From the sequence record PZ445498.1: DNA of 64,000 bases. One strand, given 5' to 3'. Below are positions 41,468 through 49,993 of the stretch, in pieces. The notes below the pieces were generated by a model. It did no database searches and was not told the DNA's origin. It worked only from the letters and a program-made list of their open reading frames with translations. This DNA comes from a phage. Both the position numbers and the translations under genes were made by a program. Each line of letters opens with the position of its first letter. Positions within the stretch are counted from its first letter, which is position 1.

Positions 41468-44240
41468 TTCTAGCTCCCAATTCAGCAAGAGCTTCCTCAT
41501 GCATCTGACGTTCTTCATCTGTCATAAACTTAACTGGAATCGGCATACATTCGATCTTACAGTAAGTTCTGTACCAGTCCACAATCTTTTCCGTATCCAG
41601 ATCTTTACCGATACCCATCATGCCAAGATACATACGGGCATATTTTGGGTTAGCGCTCTGACCTGTCTTAAGGAAGAAATCCTTCTTCTTATTCTTAAGA
41701 GCTTCGATAAACGGTTTGATTGTTACATTTGAACACTTCTTGATATCTTCCCAAAACATGTCGTGCATCTTATGGAAGAATGCAGCTCTATCGTTTGGTT
41801 TATCCTTGATATACTGTTCAACGTGTTCCACTGTTACATCTTTAATAGAATCCAGATGATAATAGCGAACCAGAAGTAACTTGGCTTCATAGGCATCTGC
41901 ATGACGTGGTGCGCAATATTCAGGAGTTGAGTACAAAATAGCTTTGATTCGCTCTTCTGTATACTCTTTGCCTGCACCTTCGATAGTTCCCCAGCTTTCA
42001 CTGAAAATATCAATAGTTGCACCCTGATCAAGTAGATAATAACGCAAAGTACTAGTATAGTTTCTAGATTCCAGCTCACGACGACGTGCGTACAGTTGTT
42101 GGGCTAACTCAATCCAACCTTCGTCAATATTATACTGCTCGGAACCGGCAGAAAATCCACTCGTAGATTTATCAATAAAATAATAAATGTTCTGAGCACC
42201 ACGGTCGCGCCTGATTGCTTGAAAACGCATGTTTGGCGCTTGGTTTGAGGTTCTAGTGATTACGAATACGTTATCAAAATAGTTAAAGTCAACACCACTC
42301 GTTACAGATGGACTACATAATAAACAATCAATCTGTTGATCAATTAGCTCATTAGTTGTATAATCCAGAATACGTCGGATATCTACATCAGACGTAGAGT
42401 TTGAGTGAATTTCTTTAACTAACGCACCAGTATTACGACGTAATGCCATTCCCTTCTCATTCAGTTCATCCGGGCCACAGTCAGATACTAGGATTGATTT
42501 CTCCCCCATCTCTAAAGATGTTTGAAGTGCAACCCAAATACTGGATTCATCAGGGAATTCATAAGCATGAGCTTTCGCCAGCATTTTACGGTGGTGATTA
42601 TAAAATGCGACTGGTTTATCAAAATCAATCAAAGAACCATAGGCTTCAATCGTTTCTGCACTGATATCACCATCGGATAAGATAACAGTTTTAGCAGTAA
42701 TAAGGATATCACGAAGAACCTGAATACATTCACGACGGTTTTTAACAACCGGAGCGAATAACAGATCATTCATTACTGCGTCACATTCATCAATAAAGAT
42801 CGTATCAATCTGACCCACAAAGCTCTTGAACTTATGGATAGAGTGAATAGTTGAAGACATACGATCAATGGCACCACGTTTGAAGTTCAGCATATCAACT
42901 GACTTATCATACTGACCAGCACCGAATTTCTTCGCGTTAGAAGATACAAGTGCCCTAGTATTTGTGATTGCAATAAAGTTTCCTGGAAGAACACCTGCAT
43001 CTAGCCACTTAGTTACTGCGGTAGTTTTACCCGTACCAAGACTTGCCTTAACAAATGTTAAATGTCCTTTTGGTGGTACAATGTTAATTTTCAGGTATGG
43101 AACTTCTGGTGGAGAATCTGTGTCTAGACGTTTTAATGGTACACCTTTTAAGTTTGGTGGAATCTCACGTTTGGAGTTATTTACAAAGGCTTTGAGAGCC
43201 TGCTTACGACCGTTATTAAAGTAATCTTGAATATTACGACTATTATCTTTAGTCGTAATATACTCAGATAAAGCTGGTTTAATCTCACGTTCTAACCACG
43301 TAAAGTCAACACCATCTTCTAACGCTCTGTGATAAAGTTTTGGGATAATACGCAGGTACACTCCATCCTCAGCTTCTTCTAGTTCGCTGATGGTTTCTTC
43401 CACTTTATCAGATGCAGCCTTCTTGCCTTTAATTTGATCAAGTAAGGAGTAGAACTCTTCTTTAAACTCACCTCTAGTTGTCTCAAAGTCAACTAGGTTA
43501 TTAGGTAGATTCACCTTCGAACCCTTAACATACACAAGGCGTGGTTTATTCTCCGCTTTAAACGGATCGACTATACCATCATCAAATAAGGGATCTGCGA
43601 AATAGTGAAGCTGAACAGAAGAATAATAAGCTAAGTCAGCAATATCAAAGCCATACTTTTGCTTACTACTGTCATTGATAGATGTAAATAAGAACTTTAA
43701 CTGTCCCTGCGTTACCTTGACATTAGATTCTAGCATTAAGTGCATTCGGATACCTGGTTTTAATCCAGCCGAAGACGATGCATGGGCAATAAACCCTGCA
43801 TCAAGAGGAAACATATCCTCACTAATACTATTCAACATCTTAATAATATGACGTGCCATGCCAACAAGATTAAACTTGTCATAGCCACCAGTATCTACAA
43901 TACCATCCACGTCCATAGCAATAATATGACTAGGATTGGATACGTTAAAGTTTCCCCTGGTACGACGCACATTATCTTTTGGAGCTAAACATTTACCACG
44001 AATAGCTACAATATGCGGGTCTTTGGTAAGACGACGCATGATAGGTAACATTTCAGCAAGGTTTTGCGGGTCAAGTTCTTCAAGTACATCAAATTTGAAG
44101 GGCATGGAAGCTGGTTTACCTTCTGGATGCTCTTTAGAGAATCGCTTTGCAAAGGTGTAATCTTCCACTTTGATCTCTTTCCAGATGCCAGTGGCTTTAT
44201 CTCTGGAAAATCCTGCGTGACCTTGTAGGATTGAGAACAC
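41451..44240 (-). CDS. replication origin-binding-like protein / P-loop NTPase
   Basis: Walker A LGTGKTT and Walker B IFIDECD; start placed at GTG 44240 with AGGAG Shine-Dalgarno rather than the upstream ATG at 44363. Confidence 0.55.
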   Translation of the reverse strand: MFSILQGHAGFSRDKATGIWKEIKVEDYTFAKRFSKEHPEGKPASMPFKFDVLEELDPQNLAEMLPIMRRLTKDPHIVAIRGKCLAPKDNVRRTRGNFNVSNPSHIIAMDVDGIVDTGGYDKFNLVGMARHIIKMLNSISEDMFPLDAGFIAHASSSAGLKPGIRMHLMLESNVKVTQGQLKFLFTSINDSSKQKYGFDIADLAYYSSVQLHYFADPLFDDGIVDPFKAENKPRLVYVKGSKVNLPNNLVDFETTRGEFKEEFYSLLDQIKGKKAASDKVEETISELEEAEDGVYLRIIPKLYHRALEDGVDFTWLEREIKPALSEYITTKDNSRNIQDYFNNGRKQALKAFVNNSKREIPPNLKGVPLKRLDTDSPPEVPYLKINIVPPKGHLTFVKASLGTGKTTAVTKWLDAGVLPGNFIAITNTRALVSSNAKKFGAGQYDKSVDMLNFKRGAIDRMSSTIHSIHKFKSFVGQIDTIFIDECDAVMNDLLFAPVVKNRRECIQVLRDILITAKTVILSDGDISAETIEAYGSLIDFDKPVAFYNHHRKMLAKAHAYEFPDESSIWVALQTSLEMGEKSILVSDCGPDELNEKGMALRRNTGALVKEIHSNSTSDVDIRRILDYTTNELIDQQIDCLLCSPSVTSGVDFNYFDNVFVITRTSNQAPNMRFQAIRRDRGAQNIYYFIDKSTSGFSAGSEQYNIDEGWIELAQQLYARRRELESRNYTSTLRYYLLDQGATIDIFSESWGTIEGAGKEYTEERIKAILYSTPEYCAPRHADAYEAKLLLVRYYHLDSIKDVTVEHVEQYIKDKPNDRAAFFHKMHDMFWEDIKKCSNVTIKPFIEALKNKKKDFFLKTGQSANPKYARMYLGMMGIGKDLDTEKIVDWYRTYCKIECMPIPVKFMTDEERQMHEEALAELGARNDSEE

Positions 44241-44736
44241 AACAATACTCCTATGTTGGTTATTCGGATATCTTTCTTTAGGACTATTCAAAAGAATAGA
44301 ACAACTATTACTACCATTTACACAAACATTAATCATCATCAAGCAGTATGAATAAGTTATCATACCTCAGTGCTGCGCTCTCTTAACTCTTATCCAGATC
44401 AGAACCTAGGTCATTGGCCGCTAAGCCGATTCTGATTGCCCTCACTATCCTATTGGTAGGTGGCTACTGGACGTGTCACCATTCGCTGCTCTTTTCGTTC
44501 GCACCCCCATATAAAGCTCTGCCTATATAACGAGCTAAATATGCACGGTTTGGATTTACCTTTCCGAATTCAGGGTACGCAGATCACTTAATTGATAATT
44601 AACTAATGCAGTATAAACACTAGTAATAGTTAAAACAACCCTTAATGGGGCAGCCTAACTGTTCCGTATTGCGGATTGTAAACAAGAAAAATTAGCAAAA
44701 TCAATTTTTACTAATGTCTCTCAATTCAATATAAAT

Positions 44737-44765
44737 ATTATATCAAGATTTTGAGCATCCTGCAA
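44737..44765 (-). promoter_or_regulatory. early promoter about 490 nt upstream of the origin-binding-like gene
   Basis: Reverse complement TTGCAG-N17-TATAAT followed by ATTTATATTGAATTGAGAGA leader. Confidence 0.55.
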
Positions 44766-44856
44766 GTAAAATTTTTCCGAAGGTGCTATCAGTGTCTTTG
44801 AGCACAGAGAAAACCGAGCCAAAATGACTCGGTAATCAGGATTGGGCTAACGAAAA

Positions 44857-45252
44857 TCAATCATCATTTAGACCTGGGACATAGATCCCAATGCGATTTA
44901 ATTGACCTTTAGCTTCTTCGAGAATATCTTCGGTGTACTCCCAAATATCATCTTCTACTTGCAAAAGATAAGGGGATTCACCAGTTTCGGGGTCACGTGT
45001 AATGGCTAAGCCACGTGAATGGAATATAGAGAAGTTGAGGGCAACAATCAAGCCCATGCTGGACAATTCATTCCAGTCAGCTTCCCAACCATCATCTTCA
45101 TCTTCGTCCACAAATACACCTACACTAGGGTCTGTTACAGAAGTAAACGGAAATGTTACACTAACCTTGTCAACCCCCAACCAACGTGCAAGGAGCCCCT
45201 CAGCACGCTCTACCAAACTAGGATCTATCTGACGCCAAAATACTTGTTCCAT
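44857..45252 (-). CDS. hypothetical protein (tandem paralog A)
   Basis: 131 aa; shares W.EL..MGL..ALN...F....TGE.P......D.W.Y..E.....L.R.G...PGL pattern with the adjacent gene. Confidence 0.45.
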   Translation of the reverse strand: MEQVFWRQIDPSLVERAEGLLARWLGVDKVSVTFPFTSVTDPSVGVFVDEDEDDGWEADWNELSSMGLIVALNFSIFHSRGLAITRDPETGESPYLLQVEDDIWEYTEDILEEAKGQLNRIGIYVPGLNDD

Positions 45253-45261
45253 TCTGCCTCC

Positions 45262-45690
45262 TTAAGCAGTTAAACCTGGGATCATATACCCGAAACGACG
45301 AAGTTTCTGAATCCCCTCATTTACTTCCTCGGGCGAATATGACCAGCCATCACGTTCATTTACCTGGAAAGCAGGAGCTTCACCAGTGCGATAATTTACA
45401 ATAAGACGGTGATTTGCAGGCATAAACAGCTTATGATTCAAGGCAAAAACCAGACCCATTTCATCGAGTTCTTTCCAGTCTACAATCTCTTCTACTCCCT
45501 CCCCTAAATCCACGCTAACTCCAATACACGGAGCTTCCTCTAGCGGGCCTTTAAAGGATAAGAAGATATCGTTATTCTCACACCAAATCTTGAGCAGATT
45601 GATGGTTTCATTATACATACCATTAGGGAGAGAGCGCCAGAAGTTGAGAAGCATAGGATTTACCTCTTTCATGAAAATATTATTGAACAT
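45262..45690 (-). CDS. hypothetical protein (tandem paralog B)
   Basis: 142 aa; paralogous to 44857-45252. Confidence 0.45.
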   Translation of the reverse strand: MFNNIFMKEVNPMLLNFWRSLPNGMYNETINLLKIWCENNDIFLSFKGPLEEAPCIGVSVDLGEGVEEIVDWKELDEMGLVFALNHKLFMPANHRLIVNYRTGEAPAFQVNERDGWSYSPEEVNEGIQKLRRFGYMIPGLTA

Positions 45691-45692
45691 GC

Positions 45693-46232
45693 TTATACCT
45701 TAAGTTTCTGAAGAGCCTTACACATTTCAAGATTTGGACTAAACTCCAGCATATAGCTGATAGCGTTTAAATCTTGAAGGTTTATTCCAGTCCTGCCGTT
45801 TACAATAACAGAAGGAAATTGATACATCATAGCACCAGCATCATCTAGGACACACCAATGCTTGAGCTTATATTTTTCTACAAAACGTAAAACAGAATTA
45901 CCCCGAGATAAACCACCTCCAGTAAAGTCTGTTGTACCAAGAAAACGATCGATCAAACCGAGTCCGGTCATAATCTGAACGTTCTCCATTTCATTTCGTA
46001 CAGAAAACCATGAAGATACCCCAACAATCATTATTGGGGGTGGCTTAAGAAAGTTCTGAAAAGCCTGGAGTAATGGCTTGTAAACCCAATCACCACCAAA
46101 GAATAGCTTCTCACTATCTGGAGCATGATGGTGAGAGATGCTCGAATTGAGCACCCCATCAATATCCAGGAAAATCACAGGAGTATTACTTATTTCCACC
46201 AGTAGCATCCCACGTCCAGACTTTAACTTCAT
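45693..46232 (-). CDS. HAD-superfamily phosphatase-like protein
   Basis: Motif I FLDIDGVLN (DxDG[TV]); start probably at an internal Met. Confidence 0.5.
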   Translation of the reverse strand: MKLKSGRGMLLVEISNTPVIFLDIDGVLNSSISHHHAPDSEKLFFGGDWVYKPLLQAFQNFLKPPPIMIVGVSSWFSVRNEMENVQIMTGLGLIDRFLGTTDFTGGGLSRGNSVLRFVEKYKLKHWCVLDDAGAMMYQFPSVIVNGRTGINLQDLNAISYMLEFSPNLEMCKALQKLKV

Positions 46233-46371
46233 CAGTAAAAGGAACTGGAACCTTCAATTCACCTTTACCCCACATAACAGATAGGAACAGAGAATAAATG
46301 GTAATCATACCGATTAGGTTGACAAACCATACTAGACCTTTCCAGATACCCTTAAAAATCTTCTTCACCAT
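46186..46371 (-). CDS. small membrane protein
   Basis: 61 aa from ATG 46371 with GGAGGGAG Shine-Dalgarno; one hydrophobic helix (LVWFVNLIGMITIYSLFLSVMW). Confidence 0.4.
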   Translation of the reverse strand: MVKKIFKGIWKGLVWFVNLIGMITIYSLFLSVMWGKGELKVPVPFTDEVKVWTWDATGGNK

Positions 46372-46534
46372 ATTCTCCCTCCTTAATAAGGAACTCTTTC
46401 CATTCTGCTGTATCCTCATAGATAACGCAGAAATCATCACTCTTCCATGAGAAGTCATCAGTAGCAAATTCGAAACGGTAGCACCAACTACCATCTGGCC
46501 ATATTAAAAGATCACACATGCTTTTCTGGGACAT
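46352..46534 (-). CDS. small hypothetical protein
   Basis: 60 aa from ATG 46534 with GGAGGGA Shine-Dalgarno. Confidence 0.35.
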   Translation of the reverse strand: MSQKSMCDLLIWPDGSWCYRFEFATDDFSWKSDDFCVIYEDTAEWKEFLIKEGEYGEEDF

Positions 46535-47363
46535 AAATATTTCCCTCCATAAAAGCTTCAACTTGATCAATAAAGTGTTTATTACCAAAAACTTCGGCAG
46601 CTCCAGCACGCCATACAGTAACACCACGTTTCTCATACTCAAGCTGTTCGTCATAACGAACTTGTGGGTTAACAACCATCATCTTAGTTCCACGACATAC
46701 AGCAGGAAATAATTCCCAGTTGAAGTTGATAACTTGGTTACTACAACCCACCACAATAACCATGTCATTGCTAGTAAGAGTATCAAACAGGTTGATTTGA
46801 CCCATGTACCACGGAGCTGTCTCACCAAAGAACACCACGTTTGGTTTTACCCATTCGTAATCTTCAGGGGCAATCGCAGTATACCCAACATCTTCGATGA
46901 TTTGATTGCGACCCTGACGATAGATCACCTCTTTCAAGTACCCGTGAGCGTGAATTATTTCATCACGAGGGATACCAGCACGTTCCAGAAGGTCATCAAC
47001 GTTAGTAGTGAAGTTCTTCACGCTATCCGCACCATAACGCTGGAACCATTCTGCAATTCGCAGATGGGCAATGTTAGGCTCAACAGTCTGTAGTTCCTGA
47101 CGACGCATGTTGTAGAACTCATGAGTCTTGAGATACAGATCGTTACCATCTTCATCAATGCCAGGGAAACGAGCACTGAAGTAGTTAGGATCATCTTCAC
47201 CACAGAAGCGACGGAAGCCAGCTTCAAAGTTAGGCAAGCTACATACTTCCTCTAGATCGTACTCATCCCACAAGGATTTCCCACTAGCAGTATCAGTACG
47301 GAAAGCACGAACACCACTATCTACACTCAAACCTGCACCACTAACAACGATTAGTCTACGCAT
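46512..47363 (-). CDS. Sir2-family (sirtuin-like) NAD-dependent protein, lacking zinc-ribbon cysteines
   Basis: 283 aa; sirtuin motifs GAGLSVDSGVRAFR, TTNVDDLLERAG, HAHG, VVFFGE and VVGCS align with bacterial CobB; no Cys-x2-Cys pairs between HG and VVFFGE. Confidence 0.75.
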   Translation of the reverse strand: MRRLIVVSGAGLSVDSGVRAFRTDTASGKSLWDEYDLEEVCSLPNFEAGFRRFCGEDDPNYFSARFPGIDEDGNDLYLKTHEFYNMRRQELQTVEPNIAHLRIAEWFQRYGADSVKNFTTNVDDLLERAGIPRDEIIHAHGYLKEVIYRQGRNQIIEDVGYTAIAPEDYEWVKPNVVFFGETAPWYMGQINLFDTLTSNDMVIVVGCSNQVINFNWELFPAVCRGTKMMVVNPQVRYDEQLEYEKRGVTVWRAGAAEVFGNKHFIDQVEAFMEGNIYVPEKHV

Positions 47364-47557
47364 TATACGATTCCTTGCTTGAATCCTTCGATGATATTTT
47401 GGAGCAGAATTGCTTCTTCTGGGCGAACCTTCTCTTGCTTAATAAGCATATCCAAACCAGCAATACAGGTAGCTACTCCAGCATTATACCCAGCATTCCA
47501 CTGCTCCATAAGCATATTTTCTAAATTACTTTTTAGATTCTGATTCAAGAAGTCCAT
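47363..47557 (-). CDS. hypothetical protein
   Basis: 64 aa from internal ATG with GGAGGA Shine-Dalgarno. Confidence 0.3.
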   Translation of the reverse strand: MDFLNQNLKSNLENMLMEQWNAGYNAGVATCIAGLDMLIKQEKVRPEEAILLQNIIEGFKQGIV

Positions 47558-47729
47558 AAAGTTTTTCCTCCAATTCCATAATACGATTTTCGTAAGAAGC
47601 ACGCAGCTTCTCGATGGACAAAGCACGAACTGTAACTTCATCTGAATTGATCGCTAGCTGAGCTAGATCTTCTGTTTCCATACGTCCGTTGTAAATTAAG
47701 CGATATTTAAGATGTTTTACGTTTTTCAT
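47526..47729 (-). CDS. hypothetical protein
   Basis: 67-aa ORF. Confidence 0.3.
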   Translation of the reverse strand: MKNVKHLKYRLIYNGRMETEDLAQLAINSDEVTVRALSIEKLRASYENRIMELEEKLYGLLESESKK

Positions 47730-47738
47730 TCTTGTTCC

Positions 47739-48020
47739 TTAGTTCTGTACTGTAAATTCATTCTTATCACAGTGAGCATAATAATACCCATACATACGAT
47801 AAATTTTCACAGCCTTAGTAGACCCCTTCGATTCTTCATAATCAATCCAGAGCCACTTGTCTTTACCTACATAATGTACCCGAAACTTCTTAACTTTCTT
47901 ATCATTCCATGTTGCAACAACACGACGATAATCAAATCCGCCCAACCAATCTAGAGCCTTACGTTCTTCACTAGGCTCTCCAAGATAGGAAACATCTACT
48001 TTCGGAAGCAATTCGCTCAT
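47739..48020 (-). CDS. hypothetical protein
   Basis: 93-aa ORF downstream of promoter 48049-48077. Confidence 0.4.
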   Translation of the reverse strand: MSELLPKVDVSYLGEPSEERKALDWLGGFDYRRVVATWNDKKVKKFRVHYVGKDKWLWIDYEESKGSTKAVKIYRMYGYYYAHCDKNEFTVQN

Positions 48021-48048
48021 AGCTTTCTCCTCTCAAATTTATAAATCA

Positions 48049-48077
48049 ATTATACATAAGTTTTAGCTCGAAAGCAA
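48049..48077 (-). promoter_or_regulatory. early sigma70-type promoter (minus strand)
   Basis: Reverse complement TTGCTT-N17-TATAAT followed by TGATTTATAAATTTGAGAGGAG. Confidence 0.65.
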
Positions 48078-48085
48078 ATAAAATA

Positions 48086-48118
48086 AAAGCCAGATCGACT
48101 AGCGACCTGGCTGATTCA
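48086..48118 (-). terminator. intrinsic terminator after nrdD
   Basis: AGCCAG...CTGGCT hairpin followed by TTTTATTTTATTT on the minus strand. Confidence 0.6.
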
Positions 48119-49993
48119 TTATTTAGCTCTTACATCTGCATGCTTGATTCGTCCCATAACCTCATGCTGTTTACCTGGGTTAAATGGGCGTGCACCTGGA
48201 TTACCAAGGTACCCACAAACACGACGTGTTACCTCAAGAGTCTCAGGATCATGGTTGCCACAAATTGGGCATTTAAATCCATCTTCAGAAGCAATTGTTT
48301 CGCCTAAGAATCCACACTCACCACAAGAATCAACTGGAGTATTAATACCAAAGTAGTGAACTTTACTTGCAGCATAGTTAATTACCCATTCTAGGGCATC
48401 TGGGAATTTCTTCATGTCAGGTAATTCCACGTAGGAAATGCACCCACCAGAAGCAATAGGAGTAAAGTTAGACTCATAATCAAATTTCACATTTGGAGCA
48501 ACCTTACGTTCTACATCAAGGTGATGGGAGTTAGTGTAATATCCTTTAGCCAGAATATCCTCATGCTCTGGGAAGTACTCACGGTCTAGACGACAGAAGC
48601 GATCACACAGAGATTCAGATGGTGTAGCATACAGACTATAACCTAACTGAGTCTCTTCCTTCTTCTGATCAGCACGATCACGCATATATTGTAGCACACG
48701 TTGAACGAACTTGATACAAGACTCAGACATTGTATCTACATCTTTACCAAACATGAGCTGCAACATTTCGTGGCAACCAATATATCCTAGAGATACGGAA
48801 GCACGCTTGTAGAAATGATCAAATACATATTCATCTGGCCCCAGACGTAATCCAAAGGCTCCTGACATATAGAGGATGGGCGCAGCTTTAGCTTGAATGT
48901 ATTTTAAGCGATCAACCCTCCACTCCAATGCTTTTAACGCGGTATCCACACGCAGCTCAAGCAGATCGAAGAATAGATCAATATTTCCTTCCGCTTCGAT
49001 AGCGATTCGAGGAAGGTTTACGGAAACAACGCCTAAGTTGTTACGACCAGAAGTTTCACCATCTTCCGCAGCAGCCAGGAATGAACGACAGCCCATAGAG
49101 ACTTTGTAGTCTCCCGTAACTTCTACAACCTTATCATAACTGATGTAGTCAGGATACATACGTTCAGCAGTACATTTCATAGCTAACTTCTTGATATCAT
49201 AGTTAACATCACCAGGTTTCATGTTTACGCCATCACGCAAAACAAATACCAGTTTAGGGAAGATAGCTGTACGTTTATTGATACCCAAACCATCCATACG
49301 CACTTCTAGGATTGCTTTCTGTACAAGACGTGCTTCCCAAGAAGTTCCTAGACCAAACCCAAAGGTAATAAACGGACTTTGACCATTAGAGTTGAACATC
49401 GTATTGATTTCATACTCCAGGCCCTGACAGGCATCGTAAACTTCTTTCTCAGTCATTTCCGTAGCCATTACAGATGCTTTGGCTTCATCCTTAGTCCAAC
49501 GTTTTGCAAACGCATGATTCTTATCATAAGACTTACGAACATAAGGAGCCAGTACTTCATCTAATCGGTCTACAGAAGTACCACCATATTGATGGGAGCT
49601 AACCTGAGTAATAATCTGAGCTGTAATAGCAGCCGCAGTAGTAATGGAGTTTGGCGTACTGATTTCAGCATTACCAACCTTCATACCGTTTTTCAACATA
49701 TCTTCCAAAGCAACCAGGCAACAGTTAGTCATACCTAATGCAGCGTAATCAGCATCATGGAAGTGAATATCACCAATCATGTGAGCATTTCGAATCTGGA
49801 TTGGCATTTCTTCCAGAATCAGATATTTACTCAATTCCCCTGCAAGCATATCCCTTTGTGTAGGGAAACGTTCTGAGGGCTTATTGGCATTATTAAACAG
49901 CAGCTCTTCATCTGCTGAACCTTCGATAATTTCTTTGCAGTTTCGAATTAAGGACTGCATTCCTTTATATTTTAGTTCTTCATTGCGATTCAT
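48119..49993 (-). CDS. nrdD: anaerobic ribonucleoside-triphosphate reductase (class III)
   Basis: 624 aa; C-terminal glycyl-radical motif RVCGYLG preceded by a Cys cluster (CGECG...CPICG). Confidence 0.85.
   Translation of the reverse strand: MNRNEELKYKGMQSLIRNCKEIIEGSADEELLFNNANKPSERFPTQRDMLAGELSKYLILEEMPIQIRNAHMIGDIHFHDADYAALGMTNCCLVALEDMLKNGMKVGNAEISTPNSITTAAAITAQIITQVSSHQYGGTSVDRLDEVLAPYVRKSYDKNHAFAKRWTKDEAKASVMATEMTEKEVYDACQGLEYEINTMFNSNGQSPFITFGFGLGTSWEARLVQKAILEVRMDGLGINKRTAIFPKLVFVLRDGVNMKPGDVNYDIKKLAMKCTAERMYPDYISYDKVVEVTGDYKVSMGCRSFLAAAEDGETSGRNNLGVVSVNLPRIAIEAEGNIDLFFDLLELRVDTALKALEWRVDRLKYIQAKAAPILYMSGAFGLRLGPDEYVFDHFYKRASVSLGYIGCHEMLQLMFGKDVDTMSESCIKFVQRVLQYMRDRADQKKEETQLGYSLYATPSESLCDRFCRLDREYFPEHEDILAKGYYTNSHHLDVERKVAPNVKFDYESNFTPIASGGCISYVELPDMKKFPDALEWVINYAASKVHYFGINTPVDSCGECGFLGETIASEDGFKCPICGNHDPETLEVTRRVCGYLGNPGARPFNPGKQHEVMGRIKHADVRAK

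What the first reader, a model, noticed from the sequence alone, without database searches (positions are those of the whole stretch)
44857..48020. Accessory cluster of small early genes around the Sir2 homolog
Between the origin-binding-like gene and nrdD lie nine short minus-strand genes: two tandem paralogs (44857-45252 and 45262-45690), a HAD-type phosphatase (FLDIDGVLN), two roughly 60-aa proteins with strong Shine-Dalgarno sites (one with a transmembrane helix), the Sir2 homolog, and three 64-93-aa ORFs. Such clusters in lytic phages often encode host-takeover or anti-defence functions. Co-occurrence of Sir2 with a phosphatase suggests, as a hypothesis only, coordinated nucleotide or NAD metabolism.
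Basis: inference. Interest (0 to 1): 0.5.

Follow-up and report, generated by a model that had tools for sequence, protein, structure and literature searches.

The report
T5-like phage Sir2–phosphatase accessory operon
This is a real nine-gene early operon of a T5-like Salmonella/E. coli phage. It is present and annotated in hundreds of sequenced relatives, is mostly dispensable in the laboratory, and its sirtuin–phosphatase pair has already been predicted in print to be an NAD-dependent RNA-repair module, so it is largely ordinary and still untested.

Summary
Nine minus-strand genes lie between nrdD and the origin-binding gene, at the stated coordinates. They form one unit with a T5-type promoter and flanking terminators.

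The window is an Epseptimavirus, about 98% identical to phages Stitch and Seabear. The cluster is syntenic with T5 genes T5.100–T5.107.

- **Enzymes:** There are two. One is a CobB-like sirtuin that keeps its catalytic and NAD motifs and the class-III Y-x-x-R motif but has no zinc cysteines. The other is a capless HAD_SAK_2 phosphatase.
- **Tandem paralogs:** Both are DUF7415 proteins with a confident model and no known fold. Elsewhere this domain is fused to, or sits beside, deoxynucleotide enzymes.
- **Variability:** Gene content varies. DT57C lacks Sir2 and HAD, Sugarlandvirus lacks HAD, and T5 swaps three small genes. T5 knockdowns score T5.100–T5.106 as "Not Fit".
- **Prior work:** The Sir2–HAD neighbourhood was described by Iyer et al. 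2022 as predicted NAD-dependent RNA-end repair.
- **Complications:** I found no RNA ligase or kinase in this genome. In V5-like phages the same HAD sits in NARP1-type NAD-reconstitution operons.

The function is unresolved but centres on NAD/ADP-ribose. Novelty is low.

The parts
48049..48077 (-). Sigma-70 early promoter of the operon: -35 TTGCTT (48077-48072), 17-nt spacer, -10 TATAAT (48054-48049), with an AT-rich upstream stretch.
   Evidence: Read directly from the sequence. The automatic scan missed it because its -35 hexamer matches only 3 of 6 bases. T5 has an annotated promoter at the equivalent place upstream of T5.100. That TTGCTT is a typical T5 -35 hexamer (as in PN25) is my own knowledge.
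48088..48112 (-). Intrinsic terminator ending the nrdD transcript, immediately upstream of the operon promoter.
   Evidence: 10-bp stem with 6 GC pairs followed by a T-run. T5 annotates a terminator after nrdD.
47739..48020 (-). g9: 93 aa, basic (pI 8.9), function unknown. Specific to the Epseptimavirus type; T5 has the unrelated T5.100 here.
   Evidence: phrog_7953, E=1e-64. Found in 250 phage records. No match in T5, DT57C or KpGranit. No Pfam, NCBIfam, PADLOC or PDB hit.
47526..47729 (-). g8: 67 aa, predicted helical or coiled-coil small protein. Ortholog of T5.101.
   Evidence: phrog_5236, E=2e-46. 91% identical to T5.101.
47363..47557 (-). g7: 64 aa, function unknown. Its stop/start overlaps the Sir2 start (ATGA-type coupling at 47363).
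   Evidence: phrog_5827. Only weak remnants in T5 and DT57C. The 'NMN transporter' label in phage PSa2 is spurious: there is no similarity to the real PnuC.
46512..47363 (-). g6: sirtuin (Sir2), 283 aa. CobB-like class III core with no zinc-binding cysteines and a 27-aa insert.
   Evidence: PF02146, E=7e-22. Best PDB relative is E. coli CobB 1S5P, E=5e-17. The alignment shows GAGLSxDSG, FYNxRR (Y-x-x-R), TTNVDDL, the catalytic HG histidine and NVVFFGE all kept, with all Zn cysteines absent across the phage clade. Below every NCBIfam CobB cut-off. No PADLOC hit.
46352..46534 (-). g5: 60 aa, acidic, Trp-rich small protein with a W-x-D/N-G-S-W-C-Y-R motif. Overlaps the Sir2 3' end by 23 nt.
   Evidence: phrog_5116. 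Homologs follow Sir2 in T5 (T5.103 and T5.104, both phrog_5116) and in Sugarlandvirus KpGranit, where the ORF is unannotated. Also found without Sir2 in Kolesnikvirus phages.
46186..46371 (-). g4: 61 aa, basic, with one predicted transmembrane helix. Specific to the Epseptimavirus type.
   Evidence: phrog_11166. Hydropathy maximum 1.93 over residues 13-31, and a strong Shine-Dalgarno site. Found in 222 records, none of the T5 type.
45693..46208 (-). g3: HAD-superfamily phosphatase of the HAD_SAK_2 family, 171 aa, capless (C0-like).
45262..45690 (-). g2: DUF7415 protein, 142 aa. Ortholog of T5.106.
44857..45252 (-). g1: DUF7415 protein, 131 aa, very acidic (pI 4.05). Tandem paralog of g2 and ortholog of T5.107.
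   Evidence: PF24187, E=1e-27. 31% identical to g2. T5.107 is the only gene of the cluster scored 'Fit' in T5 CRISPRi-ART.
44813..44833 (-). Intrinsic terminator closing the operon, 24 nt after the g1 stop codon.
   Evidence: 9-bp stem with 5 GC pairs followed by a T-run. T5 annotates a terminator after T5.107.

Best explanation
The nine genes are one early, sigma-70-driven transcription unit. It is a mosaic accessory cassette, not housekeeping.

**Enzymatic core.** This is an NAD+/ADP-ribose-linked phosphate-handling pair.
- The first enzyme is a zinc-less, CobB-like sirtuin, always followed by a small acidic g5-type protein.
- The second is a capless HAD_SAK_2 phosphatase.
- Most likely mechanism (inferred, following Iyer et al. 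2022): the sirtuin spends NAD+ to remove a negatively charged group from a macromolecule. The favoured candidate is a 2'-phosphate on damaged or re-joined RNA, in the manner of KptA/Tpt1.
- The HAD enzyme would then remove either the terminal RNA phosphate or the phosphate on the ADP-ribose by-product.
- The benefit would be a counter to host nucleases that cut tRNA or mRNA.

**DUF7415 pair.** This is a separate, more strongly conserved sub-module. It most likely binds or regulates deoxynucleotide-metabolism or replication enzymes.

**Small ORFs.** g4, g7, g8 and g9 are lineage-specific small proteins with no inferable function.

**Shown:** the gene models, the operon boundaries, the domain identities, the intact catalytic motifs, the variability, and dispensability in T5.

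**Inferred:** every substrate and the biological role.
For: **Operon structure.** Promoter and two terminators, matching the T5 annotation.

**Accessory status.**
- Natural loss in DT57C.
- Reduced set in Sugarlandvirus.
- Allele replacement of Sir2: 52% identity against 89-95% for the flanks.
- T5.100-T5.106 scored 'Not Fit'.

**Sir2.**
- The NAD-binding and catalytic motifs and Y-x-x-R, which binds an anionic group in class III sirtuins, are conserved across six phage lineages.
- The orthologous Sir2 (47% identity) in Vequintavirus lies in the run RNA_lig_T4_1 - cREC - Sir2. An AAA_33 kinase and a Metallophos gene sit alongside.
- This agrees with the published neighbourhood analysis, which names the T5-like phage SP15 as the Sir2+HAD type.

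**HAD.**
- All catalytic residues are intact.
- The model is capless and closest to phosphatases that act on macromolecules.
- The HAD-Sir2 linkage is kept after rearrangement in Pantoea phage AAS21.
- HAD homologs lie within a few genes of RNA ligases in Aeh1, L019, L020, L026 and L027.

**tRNA pressure.** The phage carries about 30 tRNA genes, so tRNA supply is under selection.

**DUF7415.**
- Fusions to thymidylate kinase, dATP/dGTP pyrophosphohydrolase and ASCH.
- Positions between nrdA and nrdB.
- Retained in every T5-like lineage examined.
Against: - **No RNA-repair partners.** tblastn finds no RNA ligase, polynucleotide kinase, cREC or MazG anywhere in this phage genome (window plus Seabear 1-45000), and the annotation lists none. 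A KptA-like step would therefore need a host ligase that leaves a 2'-phosphate, and none is known in enterobacteria (own knowledge).
- **No precedent.** No sirtuin has been shown to act on RNA 2'-phosphate, and I found no experimental follow-up.
- **Deacylase equally consistent.** The Sir2 keeps every signature of a class III protein deacylase.
- **Sir2 without partners.** Sir2 occurs without HAD in Sugarlandvirus. It occurs without any RNA-repair neighbour in Phapecoctavirus and KVP40.
- **HAD in an NAD operon.** In V5-like phages the HAD gene is in the same-strand operon as a NARP1-type pair, while the RNA-repair genes are on the other strand. This points to a small ADP-ribose substrate.
- **Limited independence.** Sir2-HAD adjacency is seen essentially in one phage lineage plus AAS21, so the number of independent events is small.
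- **Insensitive assay.** The T5 knockdown screen also scores the origin-binding gene T5.108 as 'Not Fit'.
Confidence: 0.4

Rival explanations
1. The Sir2 is simply a phage CobB: an NAD-dependent protein lysine deacylase (deacetylase or desuccinylase) that resets the acylation state of host or phage proteins early in infection. The HAD phosphatase and the other genes are unrelated neighbours.
For: - The closest solved relatives are CobB and SIRT5 (E=5e-17 to 1e-8).
- GAGxS, TQNID-like, the HG histidine, VVxFGE and the class-III Y-x-x-R are all conserved.
- Sir2 occurs alone, without HAD or RNA-repair genes, in Sugarlandvirus, Phapecoctavirus and KVP40.
Against: - All four zinc-ribbon cysteines, present in every characterised deacylase sirtuin (own knowledge), are missing across the whole phage clade.
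- Scores are far below the NCBIfam CobB cut-offs (92 against 243 bits).
- The recurrent operonic linkage to RNA ligase/cREC and to HAD_SAK_2, even after rearrangement, is unexplained.
Confidence: 0.25
2. The Sir2-HAD pair works on small NAD+/ADP-ribose molecules, not RNA.

HAD_SAK_2 would dephosphorylate a phosphorylated ADP-ribose or NAD derivative, such as ADPR-1''-phosphate, ADPR cyclic phosphate or a 2'-phospho form. That would make it a HAD-type counterpart of the Macro-domain Adpp enzyme. The sirtuin would make or consume the matching NAD-derived molecule. The result would be to protect the phage's NAD+ economy or to destroy immune signals.
For: - In five V5-like contigs the HAD_SAK_2 gene sits directly upstream, on the same strand and sometimes overlapping by 4 nt, of a Prs-like + Nampt-like pair of the NARP1 type.
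- NARP1 operons are known to recruit an ADPR-1P phosphatase (Osterman et al. 2026 preprint).
- So both operonic partners of this HAD family, Sir2 and the NARP1-type pair, handle NAD+/ADPR.
- The phage also encodes PnuC and NadR, a proposed extra NAD+ supply route.
- Iyer et al. themselves allow that the HAD processes the ADPR by-product.
Against: - This genome has no Adps/Namat-like genes.
- A capless HAD fold more often goes with macromolecular substrates (own knowledge).
- A sirtuin consumes NAD+, which is counter-productive against NAD-depletion defences.
- I did not verify that the Prs/Nampt-like pairs are true Adps/Namat.
- All five contigs may represent one broad lineage.
Confidence: 0.2
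3. The Sir2 is a phage-borne defence or exclusion effector: an NADase of the ThsA/DSR/SIR2-HerA kind, used against competing phages.
For: The lack of a zinc module is also typical of defence-type SIR2 NADases (own knowledge). Phages do carry defence systems.
Against: - No PADLOC defence model matches any of the nine proteins, even at E<=1.
- The sequence is closest to CobB and SIRT5, not to defence SIR2.
- There is no sensor or partner domain.
- The gene is expressed from a constitutive early promoter in a strictly lytic phage, where NAD depletion would harm the phage itself.
Confidence: 0.05
4. The cluster consists of universally conserved housekeeping genes.
For: The DUF7415 pair is present in every T5-like lineage examined, and T5.107 scored 'Fit'. 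HAD and g8 are about 90% conserved between T5 and this phage.
Against: - DT57C grows without Sir2, g5-like genes and HAD.
- Sugarlandvirus lacks HAD, g4 and g7-g9.
- g4 and g9 occur in only 222 and 250 of about 550 T5-like records.
- T5.100-T5.106 are 'Not Fit'.
- No gene has an assigned housekeeping role.
Confidence: 0.03

Closest known systems
Phage T5 early genes T5.100-T5.107 (NC_005859, between nrdD T5.099 and origin-binding T5.108)
   Same: - Same position, strand logic, promoter and terminator.
- Orthologs of Sir2 (T5.102), g5 (T5.104, with its paralog T5.103), HAD (T5.105, 89%), the DUF7415 pair (T5.106 at 73%, T5.107 at 68%) and g8 (T5.101, 91%).
   Different: - The Sir2 allele is only 52% identical and lacks the 27-aa insert.
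- T5 has T5.100 where this phage has g9.
- T5 has a second g5-type gene where this phage has the membrane protein g4.
- g7 is only a remnant in T5.
Sirtuin-centred, predicted NAD+-dependent RNA-repair neighbourhoods of phages, type 3 (Escherichia phage SP15) - Iyer, Burroughs, Anantharaman & Aravind 2022, Viruses 14:1977
   Same: The same sirtuin clade sits next to a 'Swiss-army-knife' HAD phosphatase, with no Macro-domain partner. SP15 homologs of g2 and g3 were recovered directly.
   Different: The published model is purely computational. Here I also find that the genome has no RNA ligase or kinase. I find too that the HAD family is operonic with NARP1-type genes elsewhere, which the paper does not discuss.
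E. coli CobB / human SIRT5 (class III sirtuin deacylases; PDB 1S5P, 6RXJ)
   Same: The Rossmann NAD-binding motifs, the catalytic histidine and the Y-x-x-R pair (CobB Y92/R95) align exactly.
   Different: There is no zinc-binding Cys4 module. There is an extra 27-aa acidic insert. Bit scores are far below the ortholog cut-offs. Activity is untested.
KptA/Tpt1 RNA 2'-phosphotransferase pathway (works-like comparison only)
   Same: Uses NAD+ to remove a phosphate from RNA and releases nicotinamide and an ADP-ribose phosphate that further enzymes clean up. The V5-like relatives carry the matching ligase, kinase and cyclic-phosphate enzymes.
   Different: The fold is unrelated (ART versus sirtuin). 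There is no biochemical evidence. T5-like phages have no ligase partner.
NARP1-AP (Adps - Adpp - Namat) NAD+ reconstitution with an ADPR-1P phosphatase - Osterman et al. 2026 preprint
   Same: A phosphatase is recruited to an NAD+/ADP-ribose operon in phages. HAD_SAK_2 occupies the analogous place next to Prs/Nampt-like pairs in V5-like phages.
   Different: Adpp is a Macro domain, not a HAD. This phage has no Adps or Namat. Its HAD partners a sirtuin instead.

Membership tests
Sirtuin / Sir2 superfamily (PF02146) | Profile match above the curated threshold | tested here: met
   78.7 bits against a gathering score of 24.
Sirtuin / Sir2 superfamily (PF02146) | NAD-binding GAGxS motif, TQNID-like motif and the catalytic His of the HG motif | tested here: met
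   GAGLSVDSG, TTNVDDL and H140-G141 are invariant in the alignment with CobB and five phage homologs.
Class III deacylase sirtuins (CobB/SIRT5) | Y-x-x-R pair that binds the acyl carboxylate | tested here: met
   FYNMRR aligns to CobB F91-Y92-N-A-R95. The residue roles are from my own knowledge.
Class III deacylase sirtuins (CobB/SIRT5) | Zinc-binding small domain with four cysteines | tested here: not met
   No cysteine aligns to the CobB Zn cysteines, and the segment is shortened in all six phage sequences.
Class III deacylase sirtuins (CobB/SIRT5) | Ortholog-level score against the NCBIfam CobB models | tested here: not met
   Best score 91.9 bits against a cut-off of 243; the equivalog model scores 74.8 against 320.
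Class III deacylase sirtuins (CobB/SIRT5) | NAD-dependent lysine deacylase activity | not testable with these tools
   Needs an enzyme assay.
Phage sirtuin + HAD predicted RNA-repair neighbourhood (Iyer et al. 2022, type 3) | A sirtuin of the phage clade in a conserved neighbourhood with a HAD_SAK phosphatase and no adjacent Macro domain | tested here: met
   g6 and g3 are two genes apart in one operon. No Macro hit among the nine proteins. The linkage is kept in T5 and in the rearranged AAS21.
Phage sirtuin + HAD predicted RNA-repair neighbourhood (Iyer et al. 2022, type 3) | A functional RNA-repair set (ligase, end-healing kinase) available in the same genome | tested here: not met
   tblastn with four RNA ligases, two kinases, cREC and MazG finds nothing at E<0.1 in the window plus Seabear 1-45000. 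None is annotated in Seabear 1-45000.
Phage sirtuin + HAD predicted RNA-repair neighbourhood (Iyer et al. 2022, type 3) | Sirtuin removes RNA 2'-phosphate using NAD+ | not testable with these tools
   Never shown experimentally, according to the literature searches.
HAD superfamily phosphatase, HAD_SAK_2 (PF18143) | Profile match and the four HAD catalytic motifs (DxD, S/T, K/R, DD) | tested here: met
   66 bits against 27.5. D15, D17, S65/S66, R102 and D122/D123 are invariant or nearly so in 53 sequences.
HAD superfamily phosphatase, HAD_SAK_2 (PF18143) | Capless (C0) architecture, as in polynucleotide- and protein-directed HADs | tested here: met
NARP1 / NARP1-AP NAD+ reconstitution | Adjacent Adps (Prs-like) and Namat (Nampt-like) genes | tested here: not met
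   No Prs- or Nampt-like sequence in the genome.
Defence-type SIR2 NADases (Thoeris ThsA, DSR, SIR2-HerA, pAgo-SIR2) | Match to a defence-system SIR2 model and an associated sensor or partner | tested here: not met
   No PADLOC hit at E<=1 for any of the nine proteins.
DUF7415 (PF24187) | Profile match above threshold | tested here: met
   g1 scores 96 bits and g2 125.5 bits against a cut-off of 27.

The most novel reading that the evidence does not exclude
Stand-alone phage HAD_SAK_2 proteins may not be RNA-end phosphatases. They may instead be ADP-ribose-phosphate phosphatases: a HAD-fold counterpart of the Macro-domain Adpp enzyme. On this reading they plug into whichever NAD+/ADP-ribose enzyme the phage carries, NARP1-type Adps/Namat in V5-like phages and a zinc-less sirtuin in T5-like phages.

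The T5-like Sir2-g5-HAD trio would then be an undescribed NAD+/ADP-ribose counter-defence route. The DUF7415 pair would be a docking module for the phage dNTP-synthesis machinery.
Probability: 0.15. Interest if true: 0.65.

Novelty: already known. Interest (0 to 1): 0.3.

Why it matters
T5-like phages are widely used models and therapy candidates, yet no gene of this operon has a tested function.

If the sirtuin really acts on RNA, it would be the first sirtuin with a nucleic-acid repair role. [quoted passage not shown]

As it stands, the cluster is a well-conserved, previously noticed piece of phage 'dark matter'. The practical value of this check is threefold:
- It sharpens which substrates to test.
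- It flags several propagated annotation errors.
- It gives DUF7415 its first functional lead, an association with deoxynucleotide enzymes.

Tried and rejected
- **Defence-model scan:** PADLOC found nothing for any of the nine proteins.
- **NCBIfam:** only sub-threshold CobB hits for Sir2 and noise for HAD.
- **Rfam (44200-48200) and tRNA scan of the whole window:** nothing. No hidden RNA gene explains the cluster or the 490-nt gap upstream of obp.
- **PDB sequence searches:** nothing significant for the DUF7415 profile, the HAD profile, g9 or g5.
- **Base composition:** no foreign-DNA signature around Sir2 despite the allele swap.
- **Literature:**
  - A search on T5 locus tags returned only one unrelated paper.
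  - The HIDEN-SEQ essentiality preprint does not cover T5-like phages.
  - The NARP1 papers do not mention HAD enzymes.
- **Spurious annotations:** the 'NMN transporter' label next to Sir2 in phage PSa2 looked like support for NAD metabolism. It sits on the 64-aa g7 homolog, which has no similarity to a real PnuC. The RefSeq 'Sir2' label on the HAD gene comes from a mis-named PHROG of C-terminal HAD fragments (phrog_18062). It is not evidence of a fusion.
- **g5 as a dedicated Sir2 partner:** weakened, because g5-type genes occur without Sir2 in Kolesnikvirus phages.

Full report
**What the window is.** A megablast of 44000-49000 finds 554 phage records. The best are about 98% identical: Salmonella phages ZBSTP12, 3-29, LVR16A, Stitch and Seabear, all Epseptimavirus (Markadamsvirinae, Demerecviridae), which are T5-like siphoviruses. 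The curated annotations of Stitch and Seabear place nine minus-strand genes between the origin-binding gene and nrdD.

**Checking each gene.**
- g1 (44857-45252) and g2 (45262-45690) are 31% identical (E=4e-20). Both match Pfam DUF7415, with two matched stretches each, so each protein looks like an internal duplication.
- g3 (45693-46208) is a HAD_SAK_2 phosphatase.
- g4 (61 aa) is basic with one hydrophobic helix. g5 (60 aa) is very acidic. Both have strong Shine-Dalgarno sites.
- g6 is Sir2.
- g7, g8 and g9 (64, 67 and 93 aa) match only PHROG families of unknown function.
- PADLOC and NCBIfam add nothing.

**Operon structure.**
- A strong terminator (48112-48088) ends nrdD.
- It is followed by TTGCTT-17 nt-TATAAT (48077-48049) and a GAGGAG ribosome site before g9.
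- Most neighbouring genes abut or overlap one another.
- A second terminator (44833-44813) follows g1.
- T5 is annotated with a promoter and a terminator at the same two places.
- The nine genes are therefore one early transcription unit. The timing is inferred from the sigma-70 promoter type and from the position in the T5 early region.

**Comparative picture.** T5 has the syntenic block T5.100-T5.107.

| Gene here | T5 counterpart | Identity or status |
|---|---|---|
| g8 | T5.101 | 91% |
| g3 (HAD) | T5.105 | 89% |
| g2 | T5.106 | 73% |
| g1 | T5.107 | 68% |
| g6 (Sir2) | T5.102 | 52% |
| g5 | T5.104 | 51% |
| g4, g9 | none | T5 has T5.103 (a second g5-type gene) and T5.100 instead |
| nrdD, obp (flanks) | T5.099, T5.108 | 89%, 95% |

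- The Sir2 here carries a 27-aa insert. It is closer to the Sir2 of Sugarlandvirus (63%), Pantoea phage AAS21 (61%) and the myovirus Phapecoctavirus (60%) than to T5's. This shows allele replacement.
- Phage PSa2 carries a hybrid, frameshifted Sir2.
- DT57C has lost most of Sir2, the g5-type genes and most of HAD, but keeps the DUF7415 pair.
- Sugarlandvirus KpGranit has only Sir2, an unannotated g5-type ORF and the DUF7415 pair.
- Record counts in the phage collection: Sir2 981, g2 549, HAD 497, g5 461, g9 250, g4 222.
- A genome-wide dCas13d knockdown screen of T5 (Adler et al. 2025, PMC11879866, supplementary file 16) scores T5.100-T5.106 as 'Not Fit' and T5.107 as 'Fit' (p=0.02). The same screen scores the origin-binding gene as 'Not Fit', so negatives are weak evidence.
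- Together these results refute 'universally conserved housekeeping' for seven genes. They support an accessory, mosaic cassette, with the DUF7415 pair as the stable part.

**The sirtuin.**
- Its best solved relatives are E. coli CobB and SIRT5.
- I aligned it with CobB and with homologs from T5, Sugarlandvirus, Phapecoctavirus, Vequintavirus and KVP40. The GAGxS, TTNVDDL, catalytic HG and VVFFGE motifs are invariant. So is FYNxRR, which aligns with CobB Y92/R95.
- In class III sirtuins this Y-x-x-R pair binds the carboxylate of succinyl- or malonyl-lysine (own knowledge).
- None of the zinc-ribbon cysteines is present in any phage sequence.
- The enzyme is very probably active with NAD+ and built to hold an anionic group. 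It is not an ordinary CobB ortholog, since its NCBIfam scores are a third of the cut-offs.

**The phosphatase.**
- All HAD catalytic residues are invariant over 53 diverse homologs.
- The AlphaFold model is very confident (pLDDT 96.1) and has no cap domain.
- No solved structure belongs to the family by sequence.

**What is already published.** Iyer, Burroughs, Anantharaman and Aravind (2022) describe a distinct phage sirtuin clade in three neighbourhood types:
- with 2H, Nudix-cREC and PIN in jumbo phages;
- with T4-like RNA ligase, cREC, kinase, MazG and calcineurin-like genes in V5-like phages;
- with a 'Swiss-army-knife' HAD phosphatase in phages typified by SP15, a T5-like phage.

They propose that the sirtuin removes RNA 2'-phosphates as KptA does. 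They suggest the partner enzymes either open cyclic phosphates or process the ADP-ribose cyclic phosphate by-product. I found no experimental test of this.

**Independent tests of that model.**
- *In favour:*
  - In Vequintavirus HeinrichReichert the Sir2 ortholog lies in the same-strand run RNA_lig_T4_1 - cREC_REC - Sir2. An AAA_33 kinase and a Metallophos gene lie beside it.
  - The HAD-Sir2 link survives a change of gene order in Pantoea phage AAS21: HAD, then a T5.100-like gene, then Sir2.
  - HAD homologs lie near RNA ligases in Aeh1 and several metagenomic phage contigs.
- *Against:*
  - The complete genome of this phage type shows no RNA ligase, polynucleotide kinase, cREC or MazG. I assessed it as the window plus Seabear 1-45000; together these cover everything except the terminal repeat.
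  - Sir2 occurs with no such partner in Sugarlandvirus, Phapecoctavirus and KVP40.

**A second context for the HAD family.**
- In five V5-like contigs (L010, L017, L020, L026, L027) HAD_SAK_2 lies immediately upstream of a Prs-like plus Nampt-like pair. It is on the same strand and in two cases overlaps by 4 nt. The RNA-ligase genes are on the opposite strand, a few kb away.
- Such pairs define NARP1, which rebuilds NAD+ from ADP-ribose and nicotinamide (Osterman et al. 2024 preprint).
- A 2026 preprint shows that some NARP1 operons add a Macro-domain phosphatase (Adpp) that converts ADPR-1''-phosphate to ADP-ribose.
- HAD enzymes are not mentioned in those papers.
- Both operonic partners of this HAD family, the sirtuin and the NARP1-type pair, handle NAD+/ADP-ribose.
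- The phage also encodes PnuC and a NadR-like enzyme elsewhere, outside the window. Osterman et al. note this pair as a possible further NAD+ supply route.
- I did not verify that the Prs/Nampt-like pairs are true Adps/Namat.

**DUF7415.**
- An exhaustive profile search finds only 263 cluster representatives among 1.84 billion.
- The conserved roughly 60-residue core occurs alone, duplicated, or fused. Fusion partners found:
  - thymidylate kinase (P0231);
  - dATP/dGTP pyrophosphohydrolase (P0294, P0295);
  - an ASCH/DUF3850 domain (P0228).
- Single-domain members lie in three contexts:
  - between nrdA and nrdB in marine phage contigs;
  - after rnlA near td/frd in Aeh1;
  - in a P2/P4-like replication region.
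- The common thread is deoxynucleotide metabolism and replication. I infer a binding or regulatory module for that machinery, with low confidence.

**Verdict.**
- The cluster is an accessory early operon whose only enzymes form an NAD+/ADP-ribose-linked pair.
- I rank the hypotheses as follows:

| Hypothesis | Confidence |
|---|---|
| Published RNA-end-repair model | 0.4 |
| Plain CobB-like deacylase | 0.25 |
| Small-molecule ADP-ribose-phosphate model | 0.2 |
| Phage-borne defence NADase | 0.05 |
| Universally conserved housekeeping | 0.03 |

- None of the small ORFs can be assigned a role.
- The locus is present and annotated in hundreds of genomes, and its key association is published. I therefore rate it as already known, with modest interest (0.3). 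The main open value lies in biochemical tests of the sirtuin and the HAD enzyme.

Noticed in passing
L010:5007-8223, L017:5001-8222, L020:5001-8708, L026:5001-8519, L027:5001-8489: In five V5-like phage contigs a HAD_SAK_2 gene sits directly upstream, on the same strand, of a Prs-like + Nampt-like (NARP1-type) pair. The NARP1 papers I read describe a Macro-domain phosphatase in that role and do not mention HAD enzymes.
   Followed up: partly
P0231, P0294, P0295, P0228; L012:2431-2844: The DUF7415 core domain is fused to thymidylate kinase, dATP/dGTP pyrophosphohydrolase and ASCH/DUF3850 in some metagenomic proteins. It also lies between nrdA and nrdB in marine phage contigs. This is the first functional lead for the domain. 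The family is small, with 263 representatives.
   Followed up: partly
window 45693-46208 and homologs in RefSeq records (e.g. NC_027297.1, NC_005859.1 T5.105): RefSeq labels the HAD phosphatase gene 'Sir2 (NAD-dependent deacetylase)'. The label traces to phrog_18062, a 92-aa family of HAD C-terminal fragments that carries the wrong name.
   Followed up: yes
window 44857-45690 and 47363-47557; records GEC_vB_N5, ESCO40, JLBYU43, ZBSTP12, PSa2: Other propagated mis-annotations: g2 homologs are called 'exonuclease', g1 homologs 'tail tube protein', and the g7 homolog 'nicotinamide mononucleotide transporter'. g7 has no similarity to the phage's real PnuC.
   Followed up: yes
L005:4468-4740 (phage DT57C): A natural deletion leaves a 90-aa remnant ORF made of a Sir2 fragment (residues about 197-250) and the HAD C-terminus (residues 135-171). 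The g5-type genes are removed, but the DUF7415 pair is kept.
   Followed up: yes
L004:4501-5315 (phage PSa2): The Sir2 is a hybrid: the first 50 residues are of the Epseptimavirus type (86%) and the rest of the T5 type (52%). It is split by a frameshift into two ORFs, which suggests a recent recombination junction or a pseudogene.
   Followed up: partly
L011:4817-4957 (Klebsiella phage KpGranit): An unannotated ORF encoding a g5-type protein (LLWPNGSWCYR motif) lies between Sir2 and the first DUF7415 gene. In T5 the two genes T5.103 and T5.104 are tandem paralogs of this family.
   Followed up: yes
window 44364-44856: This is a roughly 490-nt non-coding gap between g1 and the origin-binding gene. 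It holds two promoter-like sites (TTGCAG-17-TATAAT at 44765-44737 and TTGATT-18-TACAAT at 44704-44675, minus strand). It has no Rfam match. The ORF finder's 970-aa origin-binding ORF starts at 44363, but annotations use a start at 44240 (929 aa).
   Followed up: partly
L023:37005-38739 (Seabear, outside the window): The same phage type encodes a PnuC-like nicotinamide riboside transporter and a NadR-like NMN adenylyltransferase/kinase beside its cluster of about 30 tRNA genes. This is a possible NAD+ supply route.
   Followed up: no
L005:2049-3875 versus window 48119-49993: The nrdD of DT57C is only 60% identical to this phage's, while T5's is 89%. The mosaicism of this region therefore extends to the ribonucleotide reductase gene itself.
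   Followed up: no
L018:5512-5868 (Pantoea phage AAS21) and L003:3840-4220 (T5.100): A T5.100-like gene (46% identity over the N-terminal 50 residues) sits between HAD and Sir2 in AAS21. T5.100-type genes are therefore another recurrent, movable member of this cassette, although absent from the window.
   Followed up: partly
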